The notes below the pieces were generated by a model. That model saw nothing but the letters and a program-made list of their open reading frames with translations, made no database searches and had not been told where the DNA came from. Made by a program: the position numbers and the translations under genes. Positions 8,445-56,114 of a stretch of 60,004 nt of DNA are shown here, one piece after another (the stretch's first letter is position 1; every line of letters begins with the position of its first letter). The DNA is from an uncultured Myxococcales bacterium (GTDB lineage Bacteria > Myxococcota_A > UBA9042), in NCBI GenBank assembly GCA_903869075.1, contig CAIPXZ010000765.1:1-60004 (forward strand), written 5' to 3'.

Positions 8445-8454
8445 GGTCGGATTC

Positions 8455-16982: not shown

Positions 16983-17882
<900 letters not shown>

Positions 17883-28319: not shown

Positions 28320-28425
28320 GGCATTGAAGCGCAGTGGTTTCAAATACTTACACGGTTGGCGATCGAATCACCCGCCGACGACGGCGGATCTTCCGCTCCT
28401 GTCACAAAAACGCTAGACTGCCGCC

Positions 28426-32565: not shown

Positions 32566-32573
32566 CCCGTCAC

Positions 32574-32602
32574 AGCCTAGCGGTCGCCGCCCGTACCGGC
32601 AA
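32574..32602 (-). promoter_or_regulatory. weak promoter candidate (TTGCCG-17 nt-TAGGCT) in the 49-nt gap before the Kelch lipoprotein gene
   Basis: The -10-like hexamer ends 8 nt before ATG 32565, which would give a near-leaderless mRNA. Co-transcription with nnr is the alternative. Confidence 0.25.
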
Positions 32603-32614
32603 GAACCGTTGCGA

Positions 32615-39885: not shown

Positions 39886-39897
39886 GATGGCCAGGCC

Positions 39898-42089: not shown

Positions 42090-42095
42090 GCCGGG

Positions 42096-42124
42096 AGTGT
42101 CGGATCTGCGGGCTTTTCGCGCAA
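42096..42124 (-). promoter_or_regulatory. promoter candidate (TTGCGC-17 nt-GACACT) just upstream of the deacetylase ATG
   Basis: On the minus strand: TTGCGC (42119..42124), a 17-nt spacer, then GACACT (42096..42101). Only 6 nt lie between the -10 and the ATG, which would be leaderless-like. Confidence 0.3.
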
Positions 42125-42260
42125 GCGATCCACGCCGGCCGAATTTCGAGATCCGGCCGTTTTCATCCGCGGCGCCACCGAAGGTGGTCGCTCGTGGATC
42201 CAGTCCGAAATGCAACAGGTCTGACCGGCAGAAGTGGGCGCCGGACAGCGGTCAGCAGGC

Positions 42261-43469
42261 TTACTTGACCGCGTGGATCTTCACCGTCTCGCGCAGCTCC
42301 GTCTGGCCGATGACCGGCAGGCGGATCTCGATGGTCAAGCCGCCGCCTGGCCGCGCGAACGCCGCGACCGTGCCGTTGTGCGCCTCGACCGTGCGCTTGA
42401 CGAGGAACAGCCCCAAGCCGCTGCCGACGGCGATGCGCGCCCGCGCGCTGGGGCTGCGGTAGAAGGCCTCGAAGACGCGCGTGCACTCGTCGGGCGTCAG
42501 GCCGGGGCCGCGGTCCATGACGCGGATGACAGCGCCCGCCGGCTCGCGGTTCGTCTCGATCTGCAGCGACGGCGGGCATGGCTGGCCGTTGAGCGCCGTG
42601 TCGTGGGCGGCGTAGCGGATCACGTTCTCGATGAGCGTCGAGACCACGCGGTCCAGCGCGTTGGCGTCGCCGGAAACAACCGAGCCGAGGCTGTCCAGCG
42701 TCAGCTCAAACTGGAAACCCAGCCGCTCCAGCCGATGCCGCTCGCGCCGCAGCACCGTCTGCACCAGCGCGTCGATCGCCACCTCGCCGCGGTGCAGCAG
42801 CACCCGGTCGATGCCCACGCGCTGCGCTTCCAGCAGCCGGCCGATGTGATCCTCCAGCAGCCGCACTTCCTCGTGCAGCTCCTGCAGCAGCTCCTCGCCT
42901 TCGTTGCGGCGACGGTCCTTGCCCTGTGGTGCCAGCGCGCGCTCGCGTTCCAGCTCGATGCGGATCAGCTCGAGCGCCACCTCGATGCGCGCCAACGGCG
43001 AGCGCAGCTCGTGGGAAATTCCCGACAGCAGGTCCTTTTGCGCCTGCAGCATCCGGGCGATGCGCTCCGCCATCGCGTTCAGGCTCTGGCCCAGCGCGCC
43101 CAGATCGTCCATTGGCTCAATCGGCGCGCGCACGGACAGGTCCCCGAGGCCAATTTCCAGCGCCGCCTCGCGCAGCACGCGTGCCCGCTCGCGCAGGCGC
43201 TGGGTCAGCGTGAGCGCGATCGCCAGCAGGATCGCGGTGCCGATGCTCGCGGCAAACAGCGCCGCCAGCGCCGTACCGGCCAGCGACATCCGGCTCTGCC
43301 AGACGCTGACCGCCGCCGCACCCAACGCGCTCAAGGTGGCGATGGCCATGGCGACGGCAAAAATCTCGCCGCGCACAAGCCCCAACGGCGGCAGCGTCGG
43401 CCGCGCTGCTGGCTGCGCCAACGGCGTCATGCGCGCCGGCTGAATGCTCGCGTGCGGCTGGTCCTGCAT
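42261..43469 (-). CDS. sensor histidine kinase (TM-HAMP-HisKA-HATPase)
   Basis: 402 aa. H-box SHELRSPL, N-box ENVIRYA, G-boxes DRGPGL and GSGLGL. Two N-terminal TM helices with a short loop. Confidence 0.9.
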   Translation of the reverse strand: MQDQPHASIQPARMTPLAQPAARPTLPPLGLVRGEIFAVAMAIATLSALGAAAVSVWQSRMSLAGTALAALFAASIGTAILLAIALTLTQRLRERARVLREAALEIGLGDLSVRAPIEPMDDLGALGQSLNAMAERIARMLQAQKDLLSGISHELRSPLARIEVALELIRIELERERALAPQGKDRRRNEGEELLQELHEEVRLLEDHIGRLLEAQRVGIDRVLLHRGEVAIDALVQTVLRRERHRLERLGFQFELTLDSLGSVVSGDANALDRVVSTLIENVIRYAAHDTALNGQPCPPSLQIETNREPAGAVIRVMDRGPGLTPDECTRVFEAFYRSPSARARIAVGSGLGLFLVKRTVEAHNGTVAAFARPGGGLTIEIRLPVIGQTELRETVKIHAVK

Positions 43470-44225: not shown

Positions 44226-45182
44226 CTAGGGCGCTGGCTGCGGTTGTTTCGCGTCCAGCTGCAACTTCTGGGCGTTTGGCCCAGTCCACGCGGGCTTGGC
44301 GACCGGCTCCATCGCCAGCGCATCACCGGTCGACGCCAGAGCCTTTTCCGGCCCCCGCACCGCCAGCACCTGATACGCGATTTGGTGACCCTGATTCCAC
44401 GTGGCAAAGCCGACGTCGGTCAATTCATTGAGCTTTACGCCGTTCTTGGCGATGTCCTTGCCCGCGTCGATGTCCGCCAGCAGCGTGTCGATGTCGACCT
44501 GCCGGGCGTGGATCTGCTCGTCGTTGGTGTACTCCGGCGCCGGCGCAACGTAGCCGGCGATCTCCGGCTTGTCGGCGTTGAGCTTTTGACTCTCCAGCCG
44601 CCGCTGCACGCGCCCGGCCGACCACGCAAACAGCGCGCGTTCCTGGCCAGTCGTCGCCAGCGCCGCCGCAACGAGCTTCGCGATGTCCGCCTCGCCGCCA
44701 CACAAGCCCAGCGCGACGATCGCCCGCAGCCGCAGCAGGTCATCACCCGACTGGGTCAGCGGCCACAGCGCCGCCGCCGCCGCCGGCTTGCCGGTGCGAC
44801 CCAGCCCAGCCAGCGCCGTCAGCCGCACGCCGATGTCGCCGTCCTTCAGCGCGTCGGCGAGCGTCGGCACCACCCGCGGATCGTCGATGCCGGACAGCAA
44901 TTCCAAGGACTTGGAGCGCTCTGACGGCGAGTTGCTGGCCATGTCGCCCACGAGCGTCGGCACGGCTTCCGCGCCCAGGTGCGCGATGCGCGTGGACGTC
45001 ATGCCGACCTGGCCAACGGGATCGTGGAAGCGCTTTTGCAGCAGCCGCGGGTTCTCGACGAATTTCTCAAAGAAAATCGAGGACGCCCACACGAGCACCG
45101 CGACGATGCCGAGGCCGATGGCGTACAGCCCCAACTTGCCCCAGGCCTTGGGATTGAAGCTACGATCACTGAGGGCAGGCAT
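44226..45182 (-). CDS. membrane-anchored HEAT-repeat protein
   Basis: 318 aa with TM LGLYAIGLGIVAVLVWASSIFF. HEAT-like units (AVPTLVGDM...; DPRVVPTLADALKDGDIGVRLTALAGL; LRLRAIVALG). Confidence 0.7.
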   Translation of the reverse strand: MPALSDRSFNPKAWGKLGLYAIGLGIVAVLVWASSIFFEKFVENPRLLQKRFHDPVGQVGMTSTRIAHLGAEAVPTLVGDMASNSPSERSKSLELLSGIDDPRVVPTLADALKDGDIGVRLTALAGLGRTGKPAAAAALWPLTQSGDDLLRLRAIVALGLCGGEADIAKLVAAALATTGQERALFAWSAGRVQRRLESQKLNADKPEIAGYVAPAPEYTNDEQIHARQVDIDTLLADIDAGKDIAKNGVKLNELTDVGFATWNQGHQIAYQVLAVRGPEKALASTGDALAMEPVAKPAWTGPNAQKLQLDAKQPQPAP

Positions 45183-45256: not shown

Positions 45257-48200
45257 TCAGGGCGCGCACGGCTCGGTGACCTGGATGTCGTCGAGGAAGA
45301 CGCCCTCGTACTTGTCGTTCAGCGTGCAATCGCCCGTGTCGAAGTGGAATTCCACAATGATATTCAGGCCCTGCCACTTGGTCAGCGGCAGCACGATGTT
45401 CTGCTTGGATTTGAACTGCGTCGGCTTGAGGCCGGTCGTCGGGTCCGTGGCGTCCCAGATCATTTGCGACTGCGCGCCGTTCTTGATGATCACCTGGAAG
45501 TGCTCCGTCTGGAACGTGCCGACCGGCTGCTCGATGTCGGCGTAGATCGCGAACTGCAACTGCGCGCTTTGCTTGGGATTCGTGCCGATCTTCAGCACCT
45601 GCGTGTACAGGTCCGAAGTGACGGCGCCACAGCTGCCCGCCGGCGTCGTCGGGTCGTCGTAGTTCCACTTCGCCGGGTTGCCGAAGTAGGCCTCGTACTT
45701 GCCGTTCATGTACTTGTGCGGAATCGCGCTCCACGACGTCAGGATGCCCGGCGTCGCCGAGCCCGTCAGCGAACCCAGCGTCGCGTTCTCGAACGTCACC
45801 GCCGGCAACGGCGAGGTCGGCTGGCAGCAGCCCGGACCGGCCTTGAAGCCGGTGCCGCAGCTGAAGGTCTTGGCAGTCTCGTCCAACGCGCAGGCGTAGC
45901 TCTTGCACGGATCCGGCGTGGCGGGCGTGCAGTCGGCATCCGCGACGCACACGGGCGCGGCGCAAGTAGTCCACATGCTGATGGCGTCGATGTACGGGCC
46001 GATGTGGTTGTTGTTTTTCGGGTTGCCCGCGTCGAATTCCCAGACGAGCTGCACGGTCTTGCCGGCGACGGCGGCGGGCGCCTTGACCGAGATCGGCATC
46101 CACTGGCCGTTGGTCGTGCCGCCGATGTCGTACGAGCTCCACGCCCAGGTGATGTTGGTCGGATCGGTCGGGTCGACAAAGCCAAAGCGCAGGCGGTCGA
46201 CGGCGAAGACCGTGCCGTTGTACTGCGGCACAGCGAATACGGCCGGCGCGTCCCACTCGGTCGACAGGTTCAGGTGGAACGTGACGATGGTTGTGCCGTT
46301 GACGGGCACGGCGACCGGCGCGCTGTTGACCAAGCCGTACGGCACTTTCTGCGAGCCGGCGTCGTAGTTGCCCAGCGTGCTGCCGAAGTACAGCGAGTAC
46401 AGGTCCGGGCTGGTGCCGTAGAAATTGTCCTGCGAAATGTGCCACTTGAGCGTCGTGTCGTACGGGTCGCCGGTGGGCGACGCGGCGGCGGTCGCGAACG
46501 ACGTGGCCCAGCCCGTCGGCAGCGCGGTGCCGCCGGTCTTCTCAAACGACTCGCTGGGGATCTGCGACTTCTCCGTGCAGCAGCCCGCGGTCAGCACGCT
46601 GTCGCACTTGCCCTGGACGCAGGTGTCGACGGTGCAGCTGTCCTTGTCGTCGCAGTCGGTGTCGACGACGCAGATGCCGGACGGCTGGCAGCTGCAGATA
46701 CCGGCGCCGGTCGTCGGATCGCATTTGCCCTTTTCAACCGTGGGCTTGCACTTGCTGTCGCAGTCGCTGTCGACGGCGCACACGGTATCCTGGCAGGTGA
46801 TGTCCATCGAGAAGTCGTCGATGTTCGGACCGGCAAAGGCGTTGCCGCTCGGATCGCCGGCGTCGAACGTGAAGCAAACGCGGCCTTTCTTGCCGGCGAA
46901 CTGGTCGAGGTGCAGCTTGACGGTCTGGTAGTTGCCGTCGTTGCAGCCCTTGATCAGGTCGCTGGACCACAGCGGCGTCTTGATGTTGCCGACGACCTGC
47001 GTGCACTCGGTGGCGCCGCAGTATTGGCCGCCGGTCAGGAAGGTGACGGTCAGCTTGTCCAGCGGCGAGTTCAGCGCGCAGACGCCCAGCACCTTGTTGC
47101 AGCTCTCGCCCGCCGTCTTGCAGTCGGCGTCCGCCGTGCACGGCGCCTGCGAGCCCGGCGGGTTGTTGTACGTGGTCTGGCCGCACCACTCGGTGATCAG
47201 GCTGACGCTGAACTTCACAACGTCGTACAGCGTGCCCGACTGCAGCTGGATCTCCGGCGAGCAAATCGTGCCCTTGGGACCCTGCGTCGTCAGCTTGGGA
47301 TCGGCGTAGCTCTGGAACGTGCTGTCGCTGAAAACGAGCGACTTGCTGCCGGTGGTGCCGCCGGTCGGGTTGACCTTCCAGCCCACGGTCGTCGAGTTGC
47401 TGCCGACGTTCTTCCACGCCGAGATGCCGTTCTCGTAGCCGTCGGCGTAGAGGTTGGACGGCAAGCAGCACTGCGACTGCGACGCGTCCGGCACGTTGCT
47501 GCACAAGCCGGTGGCGGCGGCGCCGACAATCGCGCAACTGTCGATGGTGCAGGTGTTGTTGTCCTGGCAGTCCGCCACGCCGGCGCAGCAGCCCGGCGTC
47601 AGGTCGCCAAAGCAGATGCCCTTGTCGGTGACGTTGTCGTAGAACGTGCAGTCCGTCTGCGCGCAGGCGTTGCCGGTGGTGTTGGTGCACGCGGTTTTCG
47701 TGTCGCAGCCGCTGTTGTCGGTGGCGCAGAGCGTCTCGACTTCGATGTCGTCCAGGTACAGGCCCTCGTACTCGGTCGTGCCGGCTTTGCCGACAAATTG
47801 CCAGGTCACGGTCACCGAGTCACCGAAGCCGGCGAGGTTGATGACGCGGTGCTCCCACTTGCCGCCCGTGGACTTGTCGATCTTGACCGACGACCACACC
47901 GGCGTCGCGCCACTGGCGCCGTTGACGCTGACGGTCAGGACGTCGGTTTCCGTCATGCACGCGTCCTTGGCGCCGCCTCCAAAGTTCACGCAGACCTGGT
48001 CGATCGCGCAGGACGTGCAGGTGGTGCCGGCGTTGCCCGGGTTGAGCTTGACGAACGCCGGGCTGGCGTCCAGCCACAGCCAGTAGTGCAGCACGGTCGG
48101 CTTGGGCGCGCCGGTCGCCTTGTCCTTGGGGATGACGATTTCGGTCGACGTCAGCTTGCCGGTGACCTTCGCGGCGCCGCCGGTGGACTGGCAGGACGTC

Positions 48201-48904
48201 GCGGGGGTGGCGGACGTGTCGTAGTTGTAGCACTCGTTGCCAAAGTAGACCGACGACTTGCCGGTGTGCGCGCGCTTGTTGGAGACCTGCCAGTTCACCG
48301 TCGAACCGGTCGCGGTCGTCGAGACGTTGGTCGCGAAGCTGCTGAGCGTGCCGTCCTCGAACTTGACCTTGGGCAGCGGCGTCTCCTTGTCCGGGCAGCA
48401 GAGCGGCTTCACGCTGTACTCGCACTGGGCGGTGGCCTTGTTGCAAGCAGCGGTCTGGCACAAGATGTCGGCGCAGTCGGTGTCGGAACAGCAGACGTTG
48501 GCGCCGGGCTTGAGCTTCGGGTCGGTGCACTTGTTGTCGACGCAGGTGGTGACCTGGCACTGCGGATCGGCGTTTTTGACCTTGAAGCAGTCGTCGTCGA
48601 TCTTGCACTCCAACGCCACGTCAACCGGCGGCACGTCGGGCTGGATGTCGGGCTGGATGTCGGGACCGGTGTCGGCTGGTGCGGCATCGCTGCCGACGTC
48701 GGACGGGCCGGTGTCGCCGGCATCATCGGTGCTGACGTCATCGGAAGTGTCGTCGCCCGGGCCGGTGTCGGCAGGCGGCGTCACGGTCTTGGAACCGCAA
48801 GCGGCGAGCGCTGCGCTCAGGGCGAGAACCGCCAGAACGCGCTGAAATTTCAGGAGTTCAAGCACAGACTTCGGACAGCGATTCGACATCAGACTGCGAT
48901 TCAT
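45257..48904 (-). CDS. giant Cys-rich lipoprotein, paralog A: four beta-sandwich (MAM/choice-of-anchor-J-like) modules joined by Dictyostelium-type Cys repeats
   Basis: 1215 aa from ATG 48904 with a GAGGGGA SD. Lipobox LSAALAAC|GS and an acidic tether with PDIQPDIQPD. Module ends are YEGLYLDDIEVETLC, FAGPNIDDFSMDITC, HIGPYIDAISMWTTC and YEGVFLDDIQVTEPC. Confidence 0.85.
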   Translation of the reverse strand: MNRSLMSNRCPKSVLELLKFQRVLAVLALSAALAACGSKTVTPPADTGPGDDTSDDVSTDDAGDTGPSDVGSDAAPADTGPDIQPDIQPDVPPVDVALECKIDDDCFKVKNADPQCQVTTCVDNKCTDPKLKPGANVCCSDTDCADILCQTAACNKATAQCEYSVKPLCCPDKETPLPKVKFEDGTLSSFATNVSTTATGSTVNWQVSNKRAHTGKSSVYFGNECYNYDTSATPATSCQSTGGAAKVTGKLTSTEIVIPKDKATGAPKPTVLHYWLWLDASPAFVKLNPGNAGTTCTSCAIDQVCVNFGGGAKDACMTETDVLTVSVNGASGATPVWSSVKIDKSTGGKWEHRVINLAGFGDSVTVTWQFVGKAGTTEYEGLYLDDIEVETLCATDNSGCDTKTACTNTTGNACAQTDCTFYDNVTDKGICFGDLTPGCCAGVADCQDNNTCTIDSCAIVGAAATGLCSNVPDASQSQCCLPSNLYADGYENGISAWKNVGSNSTTVGWKVNPTGGTTGSKSLVFSDSTFQSYADPKLTTQGPKGTICSPEIQLQSGTLYDVVKFSVSLITEWCGQTTYNNPPGSQAPCTADADCKTAGESCNKVLGVCALNSPLDKLTVTFLTGGQYCGATECTQVVGNIKTPLWSSDLIKGCNDGNYQTVKLHLDQFAGKKGRVCFTFDAGDPSGNAFAGPNIDDFSMDITCQDTVCAVDSDCDSKCKPTVEKGKCDPTTGAGICSCQPSGICVVDTDCDDKDSCTVDTCVQGKCDSVLTAGCCTEKSQIPSESFEKTGGTALPTGWATSFATAAASPTGDPYDTTLKWHISQDNFYGTSPDLYSLYFGSTLGNYDAGSQKVPYGLVNSAPVAVPVNGTTIVTFHLNLSTEWDAPAVFAVPQYNGTVFAVDRLRFGFVDPTDPTNITWAWSSYDIGGTTNGQWMPISVKAPAAVAGKTVQLVWEFDAGNPKNNNHIGPYIDAISMWTTCAAPVCVADADCTPATPDPCKSYACALDETAKTFSCGTGFKAGPGCCQPTSPLPAVTFENATLGSLTGSATPGILTSWSAIPHKYMNGKYEAYFGNPAKWNYDDPTTPAGSCGAVTSDLYTQVLKIGTNPKQSAQLQFAIYADIEQPVGTFQTEHFQVIIKNGAQSQMIWDATDPTTGLKPTQFKSKQNIVLPLTKWQGLNIIVEFHFDTGDCTLNDKYEGVFLDDIQVTEPCAP
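48635..48682 (-). repeat. 12-nt tandem repeat in the tether-coding region (two perfect and two degenerate copies)
   Basis: The plus strand reads GTCGGGCTGGAT twice (48635..48646 and 48647..48658), then GTCGGGACCGGT and GTCGGCTGGTGC. Encodes PDIQPDIQPD. Confidence 0.85.
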
Positions 48905-48941
48905 GGGTCCCCTCATTGCGCGAACCGGGGTCGACACTGCT

Positions 48942-48957
48942 CCCAATGCCTGTGCCG
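48942..48957 (-). promoter_or_regulatory. degenerate sigma54-like element (cGGCAC-N5-TTGG)
   Basis: The minus strand reads CGGCACAGGCATTGGG. The -24 GGCAC and the spacing are correct, but the -12 GC is GG. Lies about 40 nt upstream of ATG 48904. Confidence 0.2.
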
Positions 48958-48975
48958 ACACGACCACGTTTCACC

Positions 48976-49004
48976 AGTGTACCTCTGGCCAACGGGTTTC
49001 GCAA
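48976..49004 (-). promoter_or_regulatory. promoter candidate for paralog A (TTGCGA-17 nt-TACACT)
   Basis: On the minus strand: TTGCGA (48999..49004), a 17-nt spacer, then TACACT (48976..48981). Confidence 0.4.
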
Positions 49005-49005
49005 T

Positions 49006-49015
49006 GTCACGTGAC
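49006..49015. promoter_or_regulatory. 10-bp perfect palindrome GTCACGTGAC abutting the -35 element (possible operator)
   Basis: Self-complementary decamer 1 nt upstream of the -35 hexamer of the paralog A promoter candidate. Confidence 0.3.
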
Positions 49016-49066
49016 CGCCGCGCGCGCCGGTTTTTCAGTTGTAGCGGTGGTCGCGGACCCAAGCGA

Positions 49067-51133
49067 TCACGGGCAGTTGCTGACGGCCTGACAGGTGCAC
49101 GCGGCGGCGCTGCAGACCGGCGTTTGGCAGGTCGCGCAGGACATGGCGGCGCAGTCGGCGTCCCAGTAGCAGTCGGCCTTTTGGCAGGCGATGCCGACGC
49201 TCAAATTGTCAATGTTCACGCCGGGTTTGTTGTTCAGCGTGCCGTCGCCCGCGTCAAAGCGCACGCAGACCTGCACGGACTTGCCGGTCCAAGCGTCCAG
49301 CGACACGGTGATGGGCTGCCACTTGCCCTGCGTGGTGCCCAGGATTGCATCGGACGACCACACGGTCTGGTACGTGCCACCGGTGAAGATCTGCACGGAA
49401 AACCAGTCGAGCTTGGAGTTGCCGGGGATCGGCGGGTTCAGGTACTGCGCCGCCGGCACATCCGACCACTCGGTGTCCATGTTCAGGTCGAATTTCAGCA
49501 GCTTGTAGTTCGTCCCCGCCGTCAGCTGGATCGCCTTGGCGCACGCCGCGCCGTGCGGACCTTGGCCGTCCGGCAGCGACGGGTCGTCGTAATCGGTGAA
49601 GATGGCGTTGCCAAAGTACAGGCTGCCGCCGCCGCCGCTGCTGCCGACGTTCGGGTTGCCGCCCTTGGGGTTGGAGCGCCAGAACACGCTGACCGAGTTG
49701 TTGCCGCTGTTCGCCCAGTTGGTCAGCGGCTGGGTGTCGAAAGCGTCGGTGAACAACAGCGACGGCGCGCAGCACGCCGGTTTGCTGGCGTCCGGCTGCG
49801 ATTTGCAGACGTTTTGCGTGCAGGTGTCGACGGTGCAGGCGTTGCCGTCGTCGCAGTCGGCGTCGCCCAAGCAGCAGCCGGCGATGTTGTCGTGAAAGCA
49901 GACGCCCTGACCGACGGCGTTGCTGTAGTCGGTGCAGGTGTCAGCCGTGCAGGCAAGCCCGTCGTCGTCGCAGCTTTGCGTGTCGCTGCAGAGGATTTTG
50001 CCGAGGTCGGGGCAGATGGTCTCGACGACGACGTCGTCCAGGTAGATGCCCTCGTAGCCGTTGTTGGCGTTGGTCTTGGTGGCGAACTGCCAGGCCAGCT
50101 GGATCGACTTACCCTGCCAACTACTTAAATCTACGGCAATATGCCGCCAGCCATCAGGATGCGCCGGGTCGCCGAGCGTCGTCTTGCCGATCTGCGTCGA
50201 CCAAAACACCGTCGCCGGCGGCGCGTCCTGCGCCAGCACTTGCAGCGACAGCAGGTCTTTCTCCGGCTCGCACACGGACGCGCCCGCGACCTCGATGCAC
50301 GACGACGCCGCGTTGCACGGCGGGTCGCACGTCCCCGCCGGCAGCGTCTTGGCGTACGGCGGCTCGGTGTCCAGCCACAGCCAGAAATGTGCCTGCGCGT
50401 TCTTGCCCTTGGGCAGCAGGTACGTCTTGGACAGCAGCGTCGTCGCCACCGGCTGGGTGTCCGTCACCAGCGGCTTGCACGCGCCGGCGGTCGTCTCGGA
50501 GTTGTCGTAGGTGTGGCAAGCGTTGCCAAAATACAGGGATTTCTTGCCGCCGTGCGCCCGCCACGTTGTCTGCTGCCAGCTGACGTTGCCGTTGGTCGGA
50601 CCGTCGGTGGCGACAAAGCCATCCTGGCCGGACTCGAAGGTCGCGTCCTGCAAAAGCACCTTGCCGGAACAGCAGTTGGCGATCGCGACGTTTGTGCACT
50701 TGTGCTGGACCTGGTCGCATTTGTGGGTGTTGCACTCGTTGCCGTCGTCGCAGTCGCTGTCGAGGCAGCACGCGTCGGGGTTCTTGACGGCGGCGCACAC
50801 GCCGGCGGTGCACTTCGGCAATTGGCACGCCGAGAGCGTCAGCTGCGCGGTGCAGTCATCGTCGATGGCGCATTGGCCGACGTCCACGATCGCGTCCACC
50901 ACGTCGGCGACGTCGGGCGTCACGTCCGCGGACACGTCCACCGGCACATCCACGGCGACGTCGGTCACCTCCGCGACCGGCACATCCGCCACCGTGTCGG
51001 CGATCGGCACGTCATCGCCCGCGTCGTCGGCGGCATCCCCCGCCGCGTCCTGCGGCACCGGCGTCACAGCCTGACCGCAAGCCGCCAGCAGCAGCCCCGC
51101 CATGATCGCCGTCGCACGCCTGAGCAGTCGCAT
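49067..51133 (-). CDS. giant Cys-rich lipoprotein, paralog B: two beta-sandwich modules plus Dictyostelium-type Cys repeats
   Basis: 688 aa. Lipobox GLLLAAC|GQ and an Asp/Val/Ala tether. CCLDSDCDDGNECNTHKC and CCLGDADCDDGNACTVDTC. Module ends YEGIYLDDVVVETIC and KPGVNIDNLSVGIAC. Collinear with the N-terminal half of paralog A. Confidence 0.88.
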   Translation of the reverse strand: MRLLRRATAIMAGLLLAACGQAVTPVPQDAAGDAADDAGDDVPIADTVADVPVAEVTDVAVDVPVDVSADVTPDVADVVDAIVDVGQCAIDDDCTAQLTLSACQLPKCTAGVCAAVKNPDACCLDSDCDDGNECNTHKCDQVQHKCTNVAIANCCSGKVLLQDATFESGQDGFVATDGPTNGNVSWQQTTWRAHGGKKSLYFGNACHTYDNSETTAGACKPLVTDTQPVATTLLSKTYLLPKGKNAQAHFWLWLDTEPPYAKTLPAGTCDPPCNAASSCIEVAGASVCEPEKDLLSLQVLAQDAPPATVFWSTQIGKTTLGDPAHPDGWRHIAVDLSSWQGKSIQLAWQFATKTNANNGYEGIYLDDVVVETICPDLGKILCSDTQSCDDDGLACTADTCTDYSNAVGQGVCFHDNIAGCCLGDADCDDGNACTVDTCTQNVCKSQPDASKPACCAPSLLFTDAFDTQPLTNWANSGNNSVSVFWRSNPKGGNPNVGSSGGGGSLYFGNAIFTDYDDPSLPDGQGPHGAACAKAIQLTAGTNYKLLKFDLNMDTEWSDVPAAQYLNPPIPGNSKLDWFSVQIFTGGTYQTVWSSDAILGTTQGKWQPITVSLDAWTGKSVQVCVRFDAGDGTLNNKPGVNIDNLSVGIACQKADCYWDADCAAMSCATCQTPVCSAAACTCQAVSNCP

Positions 51134-51142
51134 CGTCAGTTC

Positions 51143-54100
51143 CTACGGGCAAGCCGCGATGAAGTGCAGGTTGTCAACCGCGACGCCAAAGCCGCTGTTG
51201 GCCACGCCGTCGACGGTGTTGAAGGAGAATTCGAGGGTGATTTCCTGGCCGATGTATGGCGTCAAATCAATTGAAATCGTGGACCAATTTCCGACGGCAT
51301 AGCCATTGGCATTCTTTTCCCACACCTGCGTCGGCACGCCAGCGACGTAGACGTTGATGGTCAAGTCGTCGTAGGGCGGACCCTGCTCGGTGTCCATGAA
51401 CAGGTCAAAAGTGACCTTGCTGTTGACGTTGTTCGGCAGCGTGATCGGCGGCGTCGTTGCGGTGCCGCTGTTGAGGCCAAAGTTGTAATTGCCGGCGCTC
51501 GGGTCGCCGTAATAGAGCACGCCCGGCGGCGTCTTCGACTGCGGGCTCGTCAGCCACAGCTGCCAACCCTGCGTCGTGCCAGCGCTATTGACAAAAACCA
51601 TGCCCATCGCGTCGTTGGTATCAAACGTGTTGCTCCAGATGTCCGGGATGCAGCAGCCCGCGGCGCCGGTCGGCTTGTGCACGCACTTTTGCGCCACGCA
51701 GGTGTCGATCGTGCACTTGGTCTCGCCGTCGGAACAGTCGGCGTCGGCGCTGCAGCAGGTGTTCTGGTTGGAGCAGACGTTCTTGACGCAGGTGTCGATT
51801 GTGCAAGCGTTTTTGTCGTCGCAGCCGCCGTTGCTCTTGCAGCAGCCGGCGATCGCCGCGAACTGGCAGTTGGCGCCGGGTCCGGGGCACGAGTCGGCGG
51901 TGCACGGGTCGCTGTCGTTGCAGTCGCCGTTGCCCATGCAGCAGCTGGCGATCGGGCTGAACTGGCACTTTTGGTTCACGCACTTGTCGGTGGTGCACAG
52001 CACGTTGTCGTTGCAGTCGCCGTCGGCGGCGCAGCAGCTGTACGGCCACGTGCACTGGCCGTCCGAGCAGACGCCGGTGTAACAGTTGAGCGTGAACGAC
52101 GGCGCGCAAGCCGCTGTATTCGCGCATTTTTTTGGCTGGCAGGTGCAGTCGATATGCACATTGTCCAGGTACACCTGCGTGTTGGTGAGCGTGCCAAACG
52201 TCGAGCTCGGCGCGACCTCAAAGTGCAGCGCGAAGCTCTTGCCGGCCACGGCGGACAGGTCCACCGTCACGGTCTGCCACGCCACGACCGCCGAATTCAC
52301 GGTCTTGGTCACGAGCGTCGTGTCCACACCGTCGATGTCTGCGGAAACGCGCAGGTTCAAGCCGGACGACACGGTGTCGGCGCGGAAGCTGAAGCTCAGC
52401 GACGCTTCCTTGCCCGGCAGCAGCGTCAGGTACGGCGAGACGGCTGTCGCCTTGGGCTTGGTGTTGGCTGGAACGCCGTACGTCGTGGCGCCGGGCAAGC
52501 CAAACGCCAGCACGCCGGTGCCGCCGGTCGAGTCGGCGATCTTGAGTGCATACCACGTCGGTCCGTTCGCGCTCATCGGCGTGATTGTGTAGCCATCGTC
52601 GCTGCCGTCAAACGCGCTGCTGAGCACCGTCGGCGCGCAGCAACCGGGTGCGGTGGACGCGGCGTACGCGCACTGGCCGGCGGTGCAGGCGTCCTTGGTG
52701 CACGGGTTGAAGTCGTCGCAGTCGCCGTCGCTCTGGCAGCAAACGCTCTGGAACACGCACTGGCCGGCGCTGCAGCTGCCGGTGAAGCAGGAGTCGGCCG
52801 AGACGCACTCCGCGTCGGTCTTGCAGCAGGTGTTCTGGTGCTTGCAGCCGCCGCCGGGTGCGGCGCAGTCGTCGATGGTGCAGGCGTCCTTGTCGTCGCA
52901 GTCGGCGGCGGTCATGCAGCAGTCGATCTTGGCGCTGTGCTGGCAGTTGCCACCCGGCACCGGGCAAAGGTCCAGCGTGCACGGCTTGTTGTCGTTGCAG
53001 TCGCCGATTGTGTTGCAGCAGTCCGCCTTGGGCGTGTGGACGCACGCGGGCGTGCCGGCGGTCGTCGGCTGGCAGGCGTCCACGCTGCAGGCGTTGCCGT
53101 CGTCGCAGTCGGCTGGCGCGGCGCAGCAGCCAGTGGAGATCTCGACCTCGTCGATGTACACGCCCTCAAACGCGTTGACGTTGCCGTCGATCGAGTCGAA
53201 CGCGAACTGCAGCGTCACCGATTGGCCCGCCCAGGCCGAGACGTCCAGCGTCACCCGCTGCCACGAGCCGTGCGTCGTGCTGAGCATCGGGTCGGAATTC
53301 CACAGCGGCACCGTCGCGGCGCCGTCCAGCACGTTGACGGTCAGCATGTCGTAGCCGGCCGAGGCTTCGGTGTCCATCCACAGCCAGAACGACGCCGTCG
53401 GGTTGACGCCCGCGGTCTTGGGCACCGGCAGCGGCGGCAGCGTGGCGGTCCCGGCGACCTGCTTGCCGTTGGCGTAGGTCAGGCTGGTCGGGTCGCCAAA
53501 ATACAGGCTGACGCCGCCGGAGACGCTGCGCGCGCTGCTGAAATTCCACTGGATGCCGCCCTTGGCGGTGTCCTGGACCGACACGCCTTCGCCCTGGCCG
53601 TCCAGCGGCGCGATGCCGGCGACCGCGCTCAGCTTGCCGGTGGCGATCTTGGGCGCGCATGCGAGGCACGGCGTGACGTCATCGGCGAGGCCGGCGCCGT
53701 AGCACGCGACCTGGCCGTCGCCGTACGGCGTCAAGCAGACGTTGGCCTTGAGCGTGTACGTGCACTTGCCCTGGAAGCAGATGCCCTTGGCGCACGGGAT
53801 CTCGCAGTCGCTGTTGGCGCTGCAGGCCGTGGCATGCAGGGATTTGCCAATGCCGGCGGCGTCTTCGGGCGGCACGTCGACGGCAACCTCGGCGGCATCC
53901 ACGGCATCGGTGCCGGGCACGACGTCGGTCACGGCGTTCACGTCCGGCGCGTCGGGGCCGGTGTCCACCGTGGCATCGGTCACCGCGTCCACGCCAGCGT
54001 CGGTGGCGGCATCGTCGCCATCGGCCGCATCCGGTGCGGCGACGTCGGTTGCGACAGCATCGGTCTGCGCGTCATCGGTGGCAGCATCGGCGTCCGTTCC

Positions 54101-54211
54101 CGGCTGGGTCGTGTCGCTCGTCGCCACAGGCGCACCGCACGCCGCCAGCAGCAGGCACAGCAGGCACGCCGACTGCCACCGCCCCAAGCCCTTCGTCACG
54201 GCCATGTCCAT
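51143..54211 (-). CDS. giant Cys-rich lipoprotein, paralog C: three beta-sandwich modules separated by two blocks of Dictyostelium-type Cys repeats
   Basis: 1022 aa from ATG 54211 (MDMAVTKGLGRWQSACLLCLLLAAC|GA) with a purine-rich SD. Module ends FEGVYIDEVEISTGC, NTQVYLDNVHIDCTC and GFGVAVDNLHFIAAC. The track ORF to 55129 overlaps the OMP gene. Confidence 0.88.
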   Translation of the reverse strand: MDMAVTKGLGRWQSACLLCLLLAACGAPVATSDTTQPGTDADAATDDAQTDAVATDVAAPDAADGDDAATDAGVDAVTDATVDTGPDAPDVNAVTDVVPGTDAVDAAEVAVDVPPEDAAGIGKSLHATACSANSDCEIPCAKGICFQGKCTYTLKANVCLTPYGDGQVACYGAGLADDVTPCLACAPKIATGKLSAVAGIAPLDGQGEGVSVQDTAKGGIQWNFSSARSVSGGVSLYFGDPTSLTYANGKQVAGTATLPPLPVPKTAGVNPTASFWLWMDTEASAGYDMLTVNVLDGAATVPLWNSDPMLSTTHGSWQRVTLDVSAWAGQSVTLQFAFDSIDGNVNAFEGVYIDEVEISTGCCAAPADCDDGNACSVDACQPTTAGTPACVHTPKADCCNTIGDCNDNKPCTLDLCPVPGGNCQHSAKIDCCMTAADCDDKDACTIDDCAAPGGGCKHQNTCCKTDAECVSADSCFTGSCSAGQCVFQSVCCQSDGDCDDFNPCTKDACTAGQCAYAASTAPGCCAPTVLSSAFDGSDDGYTITPMSANGPTWYALKIADSTGGTGVLAFGLPGATTYGVPANTKPKATAVSPYLTLLPGKEASLSFSFRADTVSSGLNLRVSADIDGVDTTLVTKTVNSAVVAWQTVTVDLSAVAGKSFALHFEVAPSSTFGTLTNTQVYLDNVHIDCTCQPKKCANTAACAPSFTLNCYTGVCSDGQCTWPYSCCAADGDCNDNVLCTTDKCVNQKCQFSPIASCCMGNGDCNDSDPCTADSCPGPGANCQFAAIAGCCKSNGGCDDKNACTIDTCVKNVCSNQNTCCSADADCSDGETKCTIDTCVAQKCVHKPTGAAGCCIPDIWSNTFDTNDAMGMVFVNSAGTTQGWQLWLTSPQSKTPPGVLYYGDPSAGNYNFGLNSGTATTPPITLPNNVNSKVTFDLFMDTEQGPPYDDLTINVYVAGVPTQVWEKNANGYAVGNWSTISIDLTPYIGQEITLEFSFNTVDGVANSGFGVAVDNLHFIAACP
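51650..52036 (-). repeat. block of four CC-delimited Dictyostelium-type repeats (paralog C, aa 726-854)
   Basis: CCAADGDCNDNVLCTTDKC..., CCMGNGDCNDSDPCTADSC..., CCKSNGGCDDKNACTIDTC... and CCSADADCSDGETKCTIDTC.... Confidence 0.8.
52637..53128 (-). repeat. block of five CC-delimited Dictyostelium-type repeats (paralog C, aa 362-525)
   Basis: CCAAPADCDDGNACSVDAC...CVHTP, CCNTIGDCNDNKPCTLDLC, CCMTAADCDDKDACTIDDC, CCKTDAECVSADSCFTGSC and CCQSDGDCDDFNPCTKDAC. Confidence 0.8.
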
Positions 54212-54405: not shown

Positions 54406-56088
54406 TTAGAACTTGAAGCGCAGCGCCGCGTCCAGCCGCCACACCGACAACGCACGCGCGCCCGAGGGCGCATCCAGCGCGTCGCCCGGCAGCAGGTACG
54501 ACGCGCGCAGCATGGCGACCGTCTTGGCAGCCTTCCACCACAGCGACGCCTCTGGCTCCAAGCCGAGGAACGTGCCGTGGCCCGGCGTGGCGCCTTCCGA
54601 CGCGGCAAGCGCCGTCATCACGCCGACGTTGCCGAACAGGCCCTCGTCGGCGCCGGTCTCGAGCAGCGAAACGCGCCAATTCGGCTTGAAATACCAAGCA
54701 TTGGCCACGGCGCCGATGATGTCGCGAAACAGGATGCTGTCGACCAAGAAGCCGCGGTGAAAGCTGTAGCCGGTGATGAGCGAGCGCGGCGCGGCGTCCG
54801 GCGCGGCGCCGGTGCGCCAGTTGTCCTGGTCGTTGACGCCAAAGCCGCCACTGCTGTCGCCGGTGGCGAGGCCGAGGTCGAGGTTCCACAGCTGGCGGCC
54901 AAAGCGCCACTCGCCTTTGCCGGCAAAACCGCCGCCAACCAAGGTCTTGGACGTCACCGTGCTGGTCCGTTCGTCGGCGTTGGCGACGGTGCCGTAGCGA
55001 AACGCGCCTTCCAGCTGCAGCCGCATCGGCGCGTCGGCGACCTTGCCGCGCCAGTCCAGGTAGATTTGTGGCGTGAATTCGCGGACGGTGCGCGGGATCA
55101 GCTGGTCGCACGTCCGCTGCGCCGAGCAATCGCCGTGCTCGCCGTAAAAGCCGTTGTCCTGGCTCTGGTACATCAGCGCCGCGGCGAATTTCAGGCCCGG
55201 CGCCTCCGCCGGCTTGGCCGTCTCCGCTTGCAGCAGCCAGCGCGTCGCGTCGGCGCTGATCTCCTGCGGCAGCGGCTGGCCCTCGGTCACGGTGGCGTTG
55301 ACGCCCTTGGTCAGCACCGAGGTGCCGGTCAGGACCGTCGAGCTCAGCGGCCCTTTGAACACGATGTCGCGCGCCGCCATCAGGCGAAAACCGAACAGTT
55401 CCGCAGAGATCTGAATGCGGTCGACGTCCGTCTGGAAGTCTGACATCAGGTCGCGGCCGTCATTGCGCACCATGCCGAGGCCAAAATGGTCGCCCATCCG
55501 GCCAATGTCCAGCTCGCCCATGCCCAGCACGCGCACGTGGACCCACGCGCGCCGCACGCCGATCGCCGCCACCGATGCCACGCCGCCGGTCGGCGACGTC
55601 CACTGCGCCAGGTACTGCCCGTAATTGTTGGCAGTTGTCGCGTTCAGCCCGGTGCCGGTCGCCTTCAACGGCACCACCGACGCCGCCTGCGTATCCACGC
55701 CCAGCCGGCTCTGACCGCCCAGCGTCAGGTTGCTGACGCCGTCAATTTGCGTACAAATATCCGCCCATTCCGCGACGTGCAGCACCGGATCAAAGCGCAG
55801 GCGCAGATCGCCGATGCCCATCTGGCCATCGCTCGGCGTGGTGTTGGACTCGCCGTGGCGGACGTCCAGGTGCGGCGCAATGCTGGGATCCGACGTGGTA
55901 AAGCGCACGCCGTTCAGGTAATCCAGCCGCGTCCGCAGCTCACCGTGCAGATCCAGCGACACGAGCGGCGTGGCGGGCGGCGCGGGCTGGCCATCGGTCG
56001 GCGCTTCCGCGGCAAACGCCGGCAGCGCGCCCAGACCGCACAGGGTCAAGGTCAGGCCAAGGCGCACGCGCGAAAAGGATGACAGCAT
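54406..56088 (-). CDS. outer-membrane beta-barrel protein (family not recognised)
   Basis: 560 aa from ATG 56088. Signal LCGLGALPAFA|AE. Long run of alternating amphipathic strands. Terminal ...LDAALRFKF has an aromatic C-terminus. Promoter-like elements lie inside the longer track ORF. Confidence 0.75.
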   Translation of the reverse strand: MLSSFSRVRLGLTLTLCGLGALPAFAAEAPTDGQPAPPATPLVSLDLHGELRTRLDYLNGVRFTTSDPSIAPHLDVRHGESNTTPSDGQMGIGDLRLRFDPVLHVAEWADICTQIDGVSNLTLGGQSRLGVDTQAASVVPLKATGTGLNATTANNYGQYLAQWTSPTGGVASVAAIGVRRAWVHVRVLGMGELDIGRMGDHFGLGMVRNDGRDLMSDFQTDVDRIQISAELFGFRLMAARDIVFKGPLSSTVLTGTSVLTKGVNATVTEGQPLPQEISADATRWLLQAETAKPAEAPGLKFAAALMYQSQDNGFYGEHGDCSAQRTCDQLIPRTVREFTPQIYLDWRGKVADAPMRLQLEGAFRYGTVANADERTSTVTSKTLVGGGFAGKGEWRFGRQLWNLDLGLATGDSSGGFGVNDQDNWRTGAAPDAAPRSLITGYSFHRGFLVDSILFRDIIGAVANAWYFKPNWRVSLLETGADEGLFGNVGVMTALAASEGATPGHGTFLGLEPEASLWWKAAKTVAMLRASYLLPGDALDAPSGARALSVWRLDAALRFKF

Positions 56089-56097: not shown

Positions 56098-56114
56098 GGC
56101 AACGCGCGGGCCAA
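56098..56114 (-). promoter_or_regulatory. near-consensus sigma54 -24/-12 promoter element (TTGGCCCGCGCGTTGCC)
   Basis: The minus strand reads TGGCCC-GCGCG-TTGC. GG and GC are exactly 10 nt apart. Only one core mismatch to TGGCAC-N5-TTGC. The GC lies about 12 nt before ATG 56088. Confidence 0.45.

What the first reader, a model, noticed from the sequence alone, without database searches (positions are those of the whole stretch)
45257..54211. Nine copies of one beta-sandwich module joined by CC-delimited Dictyostelium-type Cys repeats across three tandem paralogs
Each paralog alternates two module types. The first is a roughly 170-200-aa module with conserved landmarks. These are (S/K)LYFGN near the start, F.L.(M/L)DTE(W) in the middle, a W..(V/I).(V/L)DLS..(A/W).G(K/Q) strand, and a terminal G.Y(I/L)DD(V/I).V...C. 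The second is Cys linkers of the form CC..(A/G)DC.D.N.CT.D.C, matching the Dictyostelium slime-mould repeat (CxDxNxCTxDxC). The module count is 4 (A), 2 (B) and 3 (C). Paralog B is collinear with the N-terminal half of A, which points to recent tandem duplication with module gain or loss. In A and B one sandwich carries an extra Cys-containing insertion (for example TCDPPCNAASSCIEVAGASVCEPE). This combinatorial architecture suggests a rapidly evolving binding or adhesion surface.
Basis: partly seen in the sequence, partly recalled or inferred. Interest (0 to 1): 0.65.

Follow-up and report, generated by a model that had tools for sequence, protein, structure and literature searches.

The report
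Three modular cysteine-rich lipoproteins, conserved cluster
Three neighbouring genes of an uncultured lake myxobacterium encode lipid-anchored envelope proteins made of 4, 2 and 3 copies of a known lectin-like beta-sandwich separated by disulfide-rich spacers; the architecture is real, but it is old and stable rather than rapidly evolving, and its function is untested.

Summary
Three minus-strand genes, A (45257-48904), B (49067-51133) and C (51143-54211), encode predicted lipoproteins. Each has a lipobox, a 60-100-residue acidic disordered tether, and then 4, 2 and 3 homologous beta-sandwich modules separated by six-cysteine hairpin units.

The modules belong to known families: Pfam InhA-like_MAM (PF20773) and NCBIfam choice-of-anchor J. 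The spacers match Pfam Dicty_CTDC, above threshold only in C. An AlphaFold model gives MAM, Eph-LBD and reelin-type jelly rolls.

The evolutionary reading is not supported. A and B are only 34% identical. In more than 60 relatives, every A-type protein has 4 modules, every B-type 2 and every close C-type 3. All cysteines of the 38 aligned B-type sequences are invariant. dN/dS is 0.08-0.38, and no 30-codon window exceeds 0.84.

The trio lies in a nine-gene cluster conserved in about 20 freshwater Myxococcota MAG species: a sigma54 activator, a GT39-like glycosyltransferase, an AlgE/OprD-like barrel, C, B, A, a HEAT-repeat protein, and a response regulator with its kinase.

My best reading is ligand-binding envelope lipoproteins, probably glycan-binding, held on rigid stalks and working with the barrel and the glycosyltransferase. 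That function is inferred, not shown. It is a new member of a known kind, of modest interest.

The parts
51143..54211 (-). Gene C: 1022-aa predicted lipoprotein (lipobox LLAAC25) with 3 modules and 10 six-Cys units
49067..51133 (-). Gene B: 688-aa predicted lipoprotein (lipobox LLAAC19) with 2 modules, 4 six-Cys units and a C-terminal 8-Cys cap. It starts 9 nt after the stop of C
45257..48904 (-). Gene A: 1215-aa predicted lipoprotein (start MNRS..., lipobox LAAC36) with 4 modules and about 7 six-Cys units
53828..54136 (-). C tether: acidic D/A/T/V-rich low-complexity segment (residues 26-128)
   Evidence: 24% identity to orthologues; the equivalent segment of B is disordered in the model
53126..53656 (-). 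Module C1 (residues 186-362)
52640..53125 (-). C linker 1: five tandem six-Cys Dicty_CTDC-type units (30 Cys, residues 363-524)
52139..52639 (-). Module C2 (residues 525-691), the most divergent of the nine
51653..52138 (-). C linker 2: one atypical plus four canonical six-Cys units (residues 692-853)
51149..51652 (-). Module C3 (residues 854-1021)
50873..51076 (-). B tether (residues 20-87), pLDDT about 30
50672..50872 (-). B N-terminal pair of six-Cys units (residues 88-154)
50012..50671 (-). Module B1 (residues 155-374) with a four-Cys hairpin insertion at 269-288
49772..50011 (-). B linker: two six-Cys units (residues 375-454)
49184..49771 (-). Module B2 (residues 455-650)
49070..49183 (-). 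B C-terminal 8-Cys cap (residues 651-688), collinear with the start of A linker 2
48611..48796 (-). A tether (residues 37-98)
48398..48610 (-). A N-terminal pair of six-Cys units (residues 99-169)
47726..48397 (-). Module A1 (residues 170-393) with a four-Cys insertion; counterpart of B1 (39% identity)
47468..47725 (-). A linker 1: two Cys units (residues 394-479)
46793..47467 (-). Module A2 (residues 480-704); counterpart of B2 (44% identity). It carries a lineage-specific Cys-rich insertion
46580..46792 (-). A linker 2 (residues 705-775), the least constrained segment (omega 0.46-0.75)
45962..46579 (-). Module A3 (residues 776-981)
45827..45961 (-). A linker 3: one six-Cys unit (residues 982-1026)
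45266..45826 (-). Module A4 (residues 1027-1213)
54406..56088 (-). Context gene: outer-membrane beta-barrel with signal peptide and C-terminal ...RFKF; TIGR04551-like with an AlgE/OprD-like fold
56206..58632 (-). Context gene: 808-aa polytopic membrane protein, GT39/PMT_2-like GT-C glycosyltransferase
58642..59967 (-). Context gene: sigma54-dependent transcriptional activator; orthologues carry an FHA domain
44226..45182 (-). Context gene: 318-aa HEAT-repeat protein with one N-terminal hydrophobic helix
43485..44201 (-). Context gene: OmpR-type response regulator
42261..43469 (-). Context gene: HAMP-HisKA-HATPase sensor kinase

Best explanation
A, B and C are three anciently diverged paralogous lipoproteins of the cell envelope of an uncultured freshwater Myxococcota lineage.

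Shown by tools: each has a type-II signal peptide with a lipobox and a long acidic tether. The tether is disordered in the model of B and is inferred for A and C from their similar composition. A chain of MAM-like ('InhA-like MAM' / choice-of-anchor J) jelly-roll beta-sandwiches follows, 4, 2 and 3 of them, spaced by six-cysteine beta-hairpin units of the Dicty_CTDC type. Module numbers and cysteines are conserved, and all parts are under purifying selection. The genes lie in a fixed nine-gene cluster with a GT39-like GT-C glycosyltransferase, an AlgE/OprD-like 18-strand-type outer-membrane barrel, a HEAT-repeat protein, an OmpR-type two-component system and a sigma54 activator.

Inferred: every module starts at the second C of a 'CC' and ends at a conserved C, and the linkers hold multiples of six Cys. 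The two boundary cysteines therefore probably clamp each sandwich's termini, so that the sandwiches hang as side-beads on a continuous, rigid, disulfide-stapled stalk. The stalk is itself held to the outer membrane by the lipid and the flexible tether.

Most likely function, also inferred: non-enzymatic, multivalent ligand-binding scaffolds. The sandwiches would bind a polymer, most probably a glycan that is made, modified or passed through the envelope by the neighbouring glycosyltransferase and barrel. The lipoproteins would then retain or organise it at the cell surface. The S/T/P/D-rich tethers could in addition be substrates of the PMT-like enzyme.
For: Lipoboxes and tethers.
Domain identity: PF20773 in B (37.9 bits) and C (54.8 bits); NF038128 at 38.8 and 52.5 bits. 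The only sequence relative in PDB is the MAM domain of InhA (4yu5, E 1e-4).
Structure: model of B has mean pLDDT 80, sandwiches mostly above 90, Cys units form hairpins, and residues 14-86 are disordered. Foldseek hits are reelin repeats (E 1e-10), meprin, enteropeptidase and neuropilin MAM domains, Eph LBD, the Kgp adhesin domain, InhA2, CBM27 and SGBP-B. No enzyme fold aligns to the modules.
Conservation: all 45 Cys of B are invariant in 38 aligned B-type sequences. Cys parity is shown. Module numbers are fixed.
Synteny: conserved in about 20 species at 35-80% identity.
Selection: omega 0.08-0.38 for A, B and C against 0.02-0.24 for the neighbours.
Barrel: the top fold matches are AlgE (E 6e-14, TMt 0.62), then Occ/OprD porins and ChiP. 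One orthologue hits Pfam Alginate_exp at 31 bits.
Glycosyltransferase: orthologues at 34-54% identity pass PMT_2 and PMT, and NCBI names them GT39. The motifs RDEAFYFG and EHPPLDK are invariant.
Neighbourhood: a polysaccharide deacetylase with DUF3473 follows the kinase gene.
Precedent: a lectin-like domain on a Cys-rich 'rigid stalk' was proposed for M. xanthus TraA, and the same paper notes a resemblance to Dictyostelium PF00526 proteins (PMC3325183).
Against: There is no experimental or expression evidence; no RNA runs hold the sequence. No ligand is identified. MAM and Eph-type sandwiches bind proteins as often as glycans. The cluster has no polysaccharide synthase, no Wzx/Wzy and no glycoside hydrolase, so a glycan pathway is not evident. 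The window's own GT39-like protein has no Pfam hit at E<=0.1 and no PDB sequence relative. The barrel scores 173 bits against TIGR04551, below its cut-off of 300, and its model is of medium quality (pLDDT 68.6). Conserved synteny could reflect co-regulation only. Three species keep the cluster without A. Surface versus periplasmic orientation is unknown.
Confidence: 0.55

Rival explanations
1. Nutrient-capture lipoproteins. The sandwiches act as CBM-like surface glycan-binding proteins that hand oligosaccharides to the OprD/ChiP-like channel for import, by analogy with the Bacteroidota SGBP/SusE/F proteins beside SusC.
For: The barrel also matches substrate-specific import channels, namely Occ/OprD and E. 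coli chitoporin 7vtz. There are weak Pfam hits to the SGBP_B xyloglucan-binding domain (E 0.02-0.11) and a Foldseek hit to SGBP-B 7kwb. A two-component sensor sits in the cluster.
Against: The conserved cluster has no glycoside hydrolase, no TonB-dependent transporter and no inner-membrane sugar transporter. The best barrel match is the exporter AlgE. A GT-C transferase fits envelope biosynthesis better than catabolism.
Confidence: 0.15
2. Cell-cell or cell-prey recognition adhesins of the TraA type. The sandwiches would make homotypic or heterotypic protein contacts, with the Cys stalk presenting them.
For: The architecture is analogous to TraA, which has a beta-sandwich lectin-like domain, Cys-rich repeats and an adjacent outer-membrane partner TraB. 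MAM domains of meprin and RPTPmu mediate protein-protein adhesion (my own knowledge).
Against: There is no hypervariable region. The closest pair (dS about 0.2) has omega 0.08-0.12, and no window has omega above 1. This is unlike the highly polymorphic TraA variable domain (title and abstract of PMC6372800). TIGR04201 repeats and a MYXO-CTERM tag were not detected. The host is a planktonic lake lineage.
Confidence: 0.12
3. A purely structural envelope element, such as a spacer, coat or lattice made of rigid disulfide-rich rods, with no specific ligand.
For: Cys content is high at 6-8%, with invariant cysteines. There are three stoichiometric-looking partners in fixed order. The conserved residues lie mostly in core strands.
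Against: The module family is elsewhere attached to proteases and to surface-anchored proteins as an accessory binding domain. Long flexible tethers argue against a fixed lattice.
Confidence: 0.1
4. One reading: recently duplicated paralogs that are gaining and losing modules and evolving quickly to diversify a binding surface.
For: A, B and C are the fastest-evolving genes of the cluster, A most of all (omega up to 0.38; linker 2 up to 0.75). A is absent from three species. More distant relatives carry 1-8 modules. A2 carries a lineage-specific Cys-rich insertion.
Against: Paralog identity is 34% or less. Modules within a protein are 15-31% identical. Module number is fixed within every orthologue group. 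No window has omega above 1. There is no DNA-level repeat above about 80% identity.
Confidence: 0.05

Closest known systems
MAM-like domain of immune inhibitor A (InhA, M6 metallopeptidase; PDB 4yu5/4yu6; Pfam PF20773)
   Same: Same domain family by sequence and by fold. It shares the ...TT.GKW...DLS.F.GK...F.Y / ..DD..V signature.
   Different: There is no peptidase domain here. The domain is present 2-4 times per protein. Each copy is bracketed by conserved cysteines and interleaved with Cys-rich units. The anchor is an N-terminal lipid.
Choice-of-anchor J domain proteins (NCBIfam NF038128)
   Same: B and C pass the model's cut-off, and C residues 540-687 cover the full domain. The module profile finds 6528 cluster representatives at E<=1e-3, many with several copies.
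   Different: As I recall it, the family's name refers to partners carrying varied C-terminal sorting signals. A, B and C end right at the last module or at a Cys cap, and no PEP-CTERM, MYXO-CTERM or T9SS domain was detected. They use a lipobox instead.
Dictyostelium Cys-rich repeat proteins (Pfam PF00526; EcmA/EcmB, PsiA, DicA1)
   Same: The same C.D.N.CT.D.C repeat core. C passes Pfam's threshold with five matched stretches. PsiA and DicA1 also combine a lectin-like sandwich (PA14) with these repeats (PMC3325183).
   Different: This is a bacterial lipoprotein. The units are about 28-40 residues with six Cys and abut as 'CC'. They alternate with sandwiches instead of forming one long array. 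A and B fall below Pfam's threshold.
Myxococcus xanthus TraA/TraB
   Same: A lectin-like beta-sandwich is presented on a Cys-rich repeat stalk in a myxobacterial envelope protein, encoded beside an outer-membrane partner.
   Different: TraA has a PA14 domain, not a MAM-like one, and TIGR04201 repeats, which were not detected here. Its anchor is MYXO-CTERM, not a lipobox. It has one sandwich rather than 2-4. TraA is polymorphic, whereas these proteins are conserved. TraB is OmpA-like, not AlgE-like.
Reelin repeats (subrepeat A - EGF - subrepeat B; PDB 3a7q, 2e26, 2ddu)
   Same: These are the best Foldseek matches (E 1e-10 to 3e-8). They show the same order of jelly-roll, small disulfide-rich module, jelly-roll.
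   Different: Identity is only 11-14%. The global TM-score is about 0.18 with rmsd about 20 A, so the domain arrangement does not superpose. I read this as analogy or very remote relationship, with no evidence of shared ancestry of the whole repeat.
AlgE/AlgK-type polysaccharide export pairs and OprD/ChiP channels (for the neighbouring barrel)
   Same: The neighbouring barrel's best fold matches are AlgE, then Occ/OprD and chitoporin. One orthologue passes Pfam Alginate_exp. An alpha-solenoid (HEAT) protein and lipoproteins are encoded nearby.
   Different: There is no Alg8/Alg44-type synthase and no TPR lipoprotein. The barrel is about 100 residues longer, with long low-confidence loops. Any functional coupling to A, B and C is inferred from synteny only.

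Membership tests
Pfam PF20773 InhA-like_MAM | Whole-protein score at or above the gathering cut-off of 26.9 bits | tested here: met
   B scores 37.9 bits and C 54.8 bits. A alone gives no hit at E<=1, but its four modules match HMMs built from the B and C modules at E 1e-14 to 2e-21.
NCBIfam NF038128 choice-of-anchor J domain | Score at or above the cut-off of 30 bits | tested here: met
   B scores 38.8 and C 52.5; A scores 23.2, below the cut-off.
NCBIfam NF038128 choice-of-anchor J domain | Association with a C-terminal sorting signal (PEP-CTERM, T9SS CTD, LPXTG and the like), as I recall the meaning of the family name | tested here: not met
   No such domain was found at E<=1. The proteins end at ...EPCAP...SNCP and ...IAACP. 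Anchoring is by an N-terminal lipobox.
Pfam PF00526 Dicty_CTDC | Score at or above the gathering cut-off of 27 bits | tested here: inconclusive
   C scores 35.4 bits with 5 stretches, so it is met. A scores 15.9 and B 17.1, so they are not. Many orthologues carry a precomputed PF00526 hit.
MAM / jelly-roll beta-sandwich fold | The predicted structure superposes on solved MAM domains | tested here: met
   Meprin beta 4gwn: 204 columns, rmsd 3.7 A. Neuropilin-1 MAM 5l73: TMt 0.63. EphA7 LBD: TMt 0.61. InhA2 4yu6: 20% identity. The sandwiches in the model have pLDDT mostly above 90.
Bacterial lipoprotein (SPII substrate) | A lipobox [LVI][ASTVI][GAS]C after a charged n-region and a hydrophobic h-region | tested here: met
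   LAAC36 in A, LAAC19 in B and LAAC25 in C. A lipobox-like match is found in most orthologues. Acylation itself cannot be tested with these tools.
TraA-type receptors (TIGR04201 repeats plus MYXO-CTERM) | Matches to TIGR04201, a PA14 domain and MYXO-CTERM | tested here: not met
   None was listed at E<=1 in the NCBIfam or Pfam scans.
InhA / M6 metallopeptidase | A Peptidase_M6 catalytic domain with the HEXXH motif | tested here: not met
   No peptidase family was hit. The PDB match covers only InhA residues 454-562, which is the MAM domain.
GT39/PMT_2 GT-C glycosyltransferase (neighbour, 56206-58632) | A Pfam PMT_2 or PMT match above threshold | tested here: inconclusive
   The window protein has no hit at E<=0.1. 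Full-length orthologues pass: P0126 (54% identity, 29.6 bits), P0166 (37% identity, 30.8 bits), and P0170 (PMT_2 43.7 bits, PMT 29.9 bits). NCBI names three of them 'glycosyltransferase family 39 protein'.
TIGR04551 / AlgE-like barrel (neighbour, 54406-56088) | NCBIfam cut-off of 300 bits; an AlgE-like fold | tested here: inconclusive
   It scores 173 bits, E 1e-50, over the full model length but below the cut-off. JGI names orthologues as TIGR04551. The fold matches AlgE at E 6e-14 and TMt 0.62.

The most novel reading that the evidence does not exclude
The nine-gene cluster encodes a previously undescribed envelope machine specific to planktonic freshwater Myxococcota. A PMT-like GT-C enzyme and an AlgE-like barrel would build or export a surface polymer, or O-glycosylate the lipoprotein tethers. 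The three MAM-like, Cys-stalk lipoproteins would capture that polymer and display it as a multivalent cell coat. Control would come from an OmpR-type two-component system and an FHA-sigma54 activator. If so, this would be a new kind of glycan anchoring system. It would also add a bacterial example of the sandwich-plus-Dicty-repeat matrix proteins of social amoebae.
Probability: 0.15. Interest if true: 0.6.

Novelty: new member of a known kind. Interest (0 to 1): 0.3.

Why it matters
The value is mainly annotation. About 60 close relatives are unnamed or labelled 'hypothetical protein', and 6528 cluster representatives carry the module at E<=1e-3. These can now be described as lipoproteins built from choice-of-anchor J / MAM-like sandwiches on Dicty-type disulfide stalks.

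The conserved cluster gives a concrete, testable handle on envelope biology in an abundant but uncultured lake lineage. It also documents a second case, after TraA, of lectin-like domains on Cys-rich stalks in Myxococcota, with a parallel in Dictyostelium.

It does not open a long-standing question, and nothing here is mechanistically surprising.

Tried and rejected
- **Self-BLASTP.** Self-BLASTP gave no off-diagonal HSPs within a single protein, so I replaced it with leave-one-out HMMs.
- **Recent duplication.** DNA repeats are only 61-80% identical to the reference copy (85% in one short pair) and confined to Cys-unit cores and conserved strands. I rejected it.
- **Positive selection.** NG86 by region and in 30-codon windows found none. 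dS between the window and its nearest relatives is 0.55-0.9, so omega values are approximate. The closest pair, L004-L006 (dS about 0.2), is the most reliable.
- **Sigma54 promoters.** The consensus occurs no more often than chance (90 observed against 97 expected). One candidate upstream of the barrel is noted only in passing. Sigma70 and terminator scans were uninformative.
- **GT39 in PDB.** Sequence searches for the GT39-like protein, as a single sequence and as a profile, found nothing.
- **Literature.** Searches for TIGR04551, PF20773 and NF038128 found no paper. The papers on 'choice-of-anchor J' mention it only in gene lists, judging from their titles and abstracts.
- **Expression.** No RNA sequencing run holds the genes.
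- **Protease and toxin readings.** I rejected both because no catalytic or toxin domain was found.
- **Disulfide pattern.** I could not read it from the model because its coordinates are not exposed.

Full report
**What is there.** The window has about 68% G+C and comes from a lake-water metagenome. Three co-directional minus-strand ORFs fill 45257-54211. I call them A, B and C.
- A is 45257-48904, 1215 aa, starting at the conserved MNRS...
- B is 49067-51133, 688 aa.
- C is 51143-54211, 1022 aa.

C and B are 9 nt apart, and B and A are 162 nt apart. Each protein begins with a charged n-region, a hydrophobic stretch and a lipobox: LAAC36 in A, LAAC19 in B and LAAC25 in C. A 60-100-residue D/A/T/V/P-rich acidic segment follows. 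The proteins are 5.8-7.6% cysteine.

**Checking the observation.**
- HMMs built from the modules of two proteins find exactly 4, 2 and 3 modules in the third. Domain E-values run from 1e-11 to 5e-41, except for the divergent C2. Shuffled sequences score at most 5 bits.
- C2 is matched end to end by NCBIfam choice_anch_J.
- A residues 82-745 align with B residues 70-687 at 34% identity, E 5e-96. Module by module, A1 matches B1 at 39% and A2 matches B2 at 44%. All other pairs are 15-31% identical.
- The linkers resolve into units of six cysteines: C-x4-6-C-x5-9-C-x4-C-x3-11-C-x5-10-C. Their ends abut, which produces the 'CC' doublets.
- C has five such units between C1 and C2 (30 Cys), and one atypical plus four canonical units between C2 and C3. 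B has two units before B1, two between B1 and B2, and an 8-Cys cap. A has about seven units.
- Twelve unit cores are detectable even as DNA repeats, at 61-80% identity to the reference copy.
- The four-Cys insertion in A1 and B1 is real, and the B1 cysteines are invariant in B orthologues.

**What the parts are.**
- Pfam places the module in InhA-like_MAM (PF20773; B 37.9 bits, C 54.8 bits against a cut-off of 26.9). NCBIfam places it in the choice-of-anchor J domain (B 38.8 bits, C 52.5 bits against a cut-off of 30). A falls below both thresholds on its own.
- A profile of the nine modules finds one solved relative, the MAM-like domain of the Bacillus immune inhibitor A protease (4yu5, E 1e-4).
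- Dicty_CTDC (PF00526) passes in C (35.4 bits, five stretches) and is below threshold in A and B.
- An AlphaFold2 model of B was built on 38 aligned sequences. Mean pLDDT is 80, and both sandwiches are mostly above 90. Each Cys unit forms a beta-hairpin, and residues 14-86 are disordered.
- Foldseek against the PDB returns reelin repeats first (jelly-roll, EGF, jelly-roll; E about 1e-10). The global TM-score is only about 0.18.
- Next come the MAM domains of meprin (204 columns at 3.7 A), enteropeptidase and neuropilin, Eph ligand-binding domains, the Kgp adhesin domain, InhA2, CBM27 and SGBP-B.
- Every match at module level is a binding module, not an enzyme.

**How old and how stable.**
- Homologues occur only in uncultured Myxococcota or 'Deltaproteobacteria' MAGs, mostly from lakes such as Baikal, Erken, Mendota, Tanganyika and Zurich. 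They are either unnamed or named 'hypothetical protein'.
- Among 108 relatives, every B-type protein (about 37, down to 43% identity) has 2 modules. Every A-type (13, down to 25%) has 4. Every close C-type (about 20, down to 37%) has 3.
- All 45 cysteines of B are invariant across the 38 aligned B-type sequences. In C, the only non-conserved cysteine outside the signal peptide is the supernumerary C689. This brings the mature count to an even 74.
- In about 20 species-level genomes the genes lie in the same order: sigma54 activator, GT39-like protein, barrel, C, B, A, HEAT protein, response regulator, kinase. Identities range from about 80% to about 35%. Three species lack A.
- Nei-Gojobori dN/dS for the closest pair (dS about 0.2) is 0.12 for A, 0.12 for B and 0.08 for C. 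Against the window's nearest relatives it is 0.28-0.38, 0.18-0.23 and 0.19-0.23.
- For comparison, omega is 0.02-0.05 for the response regulator, 0.05-0.17 for the glycosyltransferase and 0.04-0.24 for the barrel.
- No region and no 30-codon window reaches 1. The maximum is 0.84, at the junction of A2 and linker 2.
The duplications are ancient, and the proteins are constrained. They are nevertheless the least constrained genes of the cluster, and A is the most relaxed.
- At greater depth the family is combinatorial. The module profile finds 6528 representative proteins at E<=1e-3, with 1-8 modules each.

**The neighbours.**
- The 808-aa protein at 56206-58632 has no Pfam hit itself. Its full-length orthologues pass PMT_2 or PMT, and NCBI calls them glycosyltransferase family 39. 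RDEAFYFG and EHPPLDK are invariant. To my knowledge these resemble the DE and HPPL motifs of protein O-mannosyltransferases.
- The protein at 54406-56088 has a signal peptide and ends in ...RFKF. It matches TIGR04551 over the full model length, at 173 bits against a cut-off of 300.
- Its model (pLDDT 68.6, pTM 0.68) is a large beta-barrel. The best structural matches are the alginate exporter AlgE (E 6e-14, TMt 0.62), then Occ/OprD channels, MOMP and chitoporin. One orthologue passes Pfam Alginate_exp.
- Downstream of A come a HEAT-repeat protein with one N-terminal helix, an OmpR-type regulator and a HAMP kinase. A polysaccharide deacetylase with DUF3473 and a FadL-family protein follow.

**How it most likely works.**
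- Shown: these are predicted lipoproteins with a disordered acidic tether. They carry strings of MAM-like sandwiches separated by conserved disulfide-rich hairpin units. No catalytic domain is present. They are stably co-inherited with a GT-C transferase and an AlgE/OprD-like barrel.
- Inferred from cysteine parity: each module's first and last cysteines pair with each other. This would make the Cys units a continuous rigid stalk from which the sandwiches project.
- Inferred from the fold family, the neighbours and the TraA precedent ('rigid stalk' presenting a lectin-like domain; PMC3325183): the trio forms multivalent ligand-binding scaffolds at the outer membrane. They most probably bind a glycan handled by the neighbouring enzymes and channel.
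- I put about 0.55 on this reading as a whole. I am much more confident in the anatomy (about 0.9) than in the glycan ligand (about 0.35).
The last of these is largely refuted.

**Comparison with known families and novelty.**
- The modules are members of PF20773 and NF038128, and the repeats in C are members of PF00526.
- The proteins are not InhA proteases. They are not TraA-type receptors, because no PA14, TIGR04201 or MYXO-CTERM was found. They do not carry a C-terminal sorting signal.
- The reelin resemblance is architectural only.
- No paper mentions TIGR04551, PF20773 or NF038128.
- I classify this as a new member of a known kind. It is a well-defined but uncharacterised lipoprotein family built from catalogued domains, inside a conserved and undescribed gene cluster. 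Interest is modest at 0.3.

Noticed in passing
window 56099-56114 (-): A sigma54-type -24/-12-like element, TGGCCCGCGCGTTGCC, lies 11 nt upstream of the barrel's ATG (56088). Similar TGGCCCG..C.TTGCC elements stand at the same place in L004 and L005. Window-wide, the consensus is not enriched, and the element may lie inside an N-terminally extended ORF.
   Followed up: partly
window 4267-7716 (+) and 28939-32784 (-): Two further large proteins contain Cys motifs. One has WD40 beta-propellers plus a MopE-type 'putative metal-binding motif' (PF11617). The other has a Kelch propeller plus six PF11617 motifs. This genome seems rich in disulfide-motif exported proteins of different kinds.
   Followed up: no
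window 46943-47185 (-), A residues 574-654: Module A2 carries a Cys-rich insertion (C574, 589, 595, 602, 609, 654) that is absent from all nine distant A-type orthologues examined. It is a lineage-specific elaboration of one sandwich loop.
   Followed up: partly
L011, L034, L036 (related loci): Three MAG species keep the whole cluster but lack paralog A; the HEAT gene follows B directly. At gene level there has therefore been gain or loss, even though module numbers are fixed.
   Followed up: partly
L007, L008, L011, L014, L017 (record titles): Public MAG records titled 'Klebsiella pneumoniae' or 'uncultured Enterobacteriaceae bacterium' carry this Myxococcota-type cluster at 45-48% identity. 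The organism labels of those records look wrong.
   Followed up: no
window 15072-16982 (+): A 636-aa ORF with only weak PKD/ASH-like Ig-fold hits sits between tsf (14358-15065) and an amino-acid-kinase-family gene, probably pyrH (16983-17882). It lies within the otherwise classical rpsB-tsf-pyrH-frr block.
   Followed up: no
window 41211-42215 (-) and 39898-41394 (-): A polysaccharide deacetylase with DUF3473 and a FadL/TodX-family outer-membrane protein lie directly downstream of the kinase gene. Both are also syntenic in distant relatives and may extend the functional cluster.
   Followed up: partly
P0204 (homologue of the barrel): A 905-aa protein, named by its source as from Kofleriaceae, fuses an alpha/beta-hydrolase to a TIGR04551-like barrel region (27% identity, 89% coverage).
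   Followed up: no
window 26325-28367 (-), 7584-8876 (-), 38809-39897 (-): Three ORFs have coding-like GC3 (0.80-0.88) but no Pfam match at E<=0.01.
   Followed up: no
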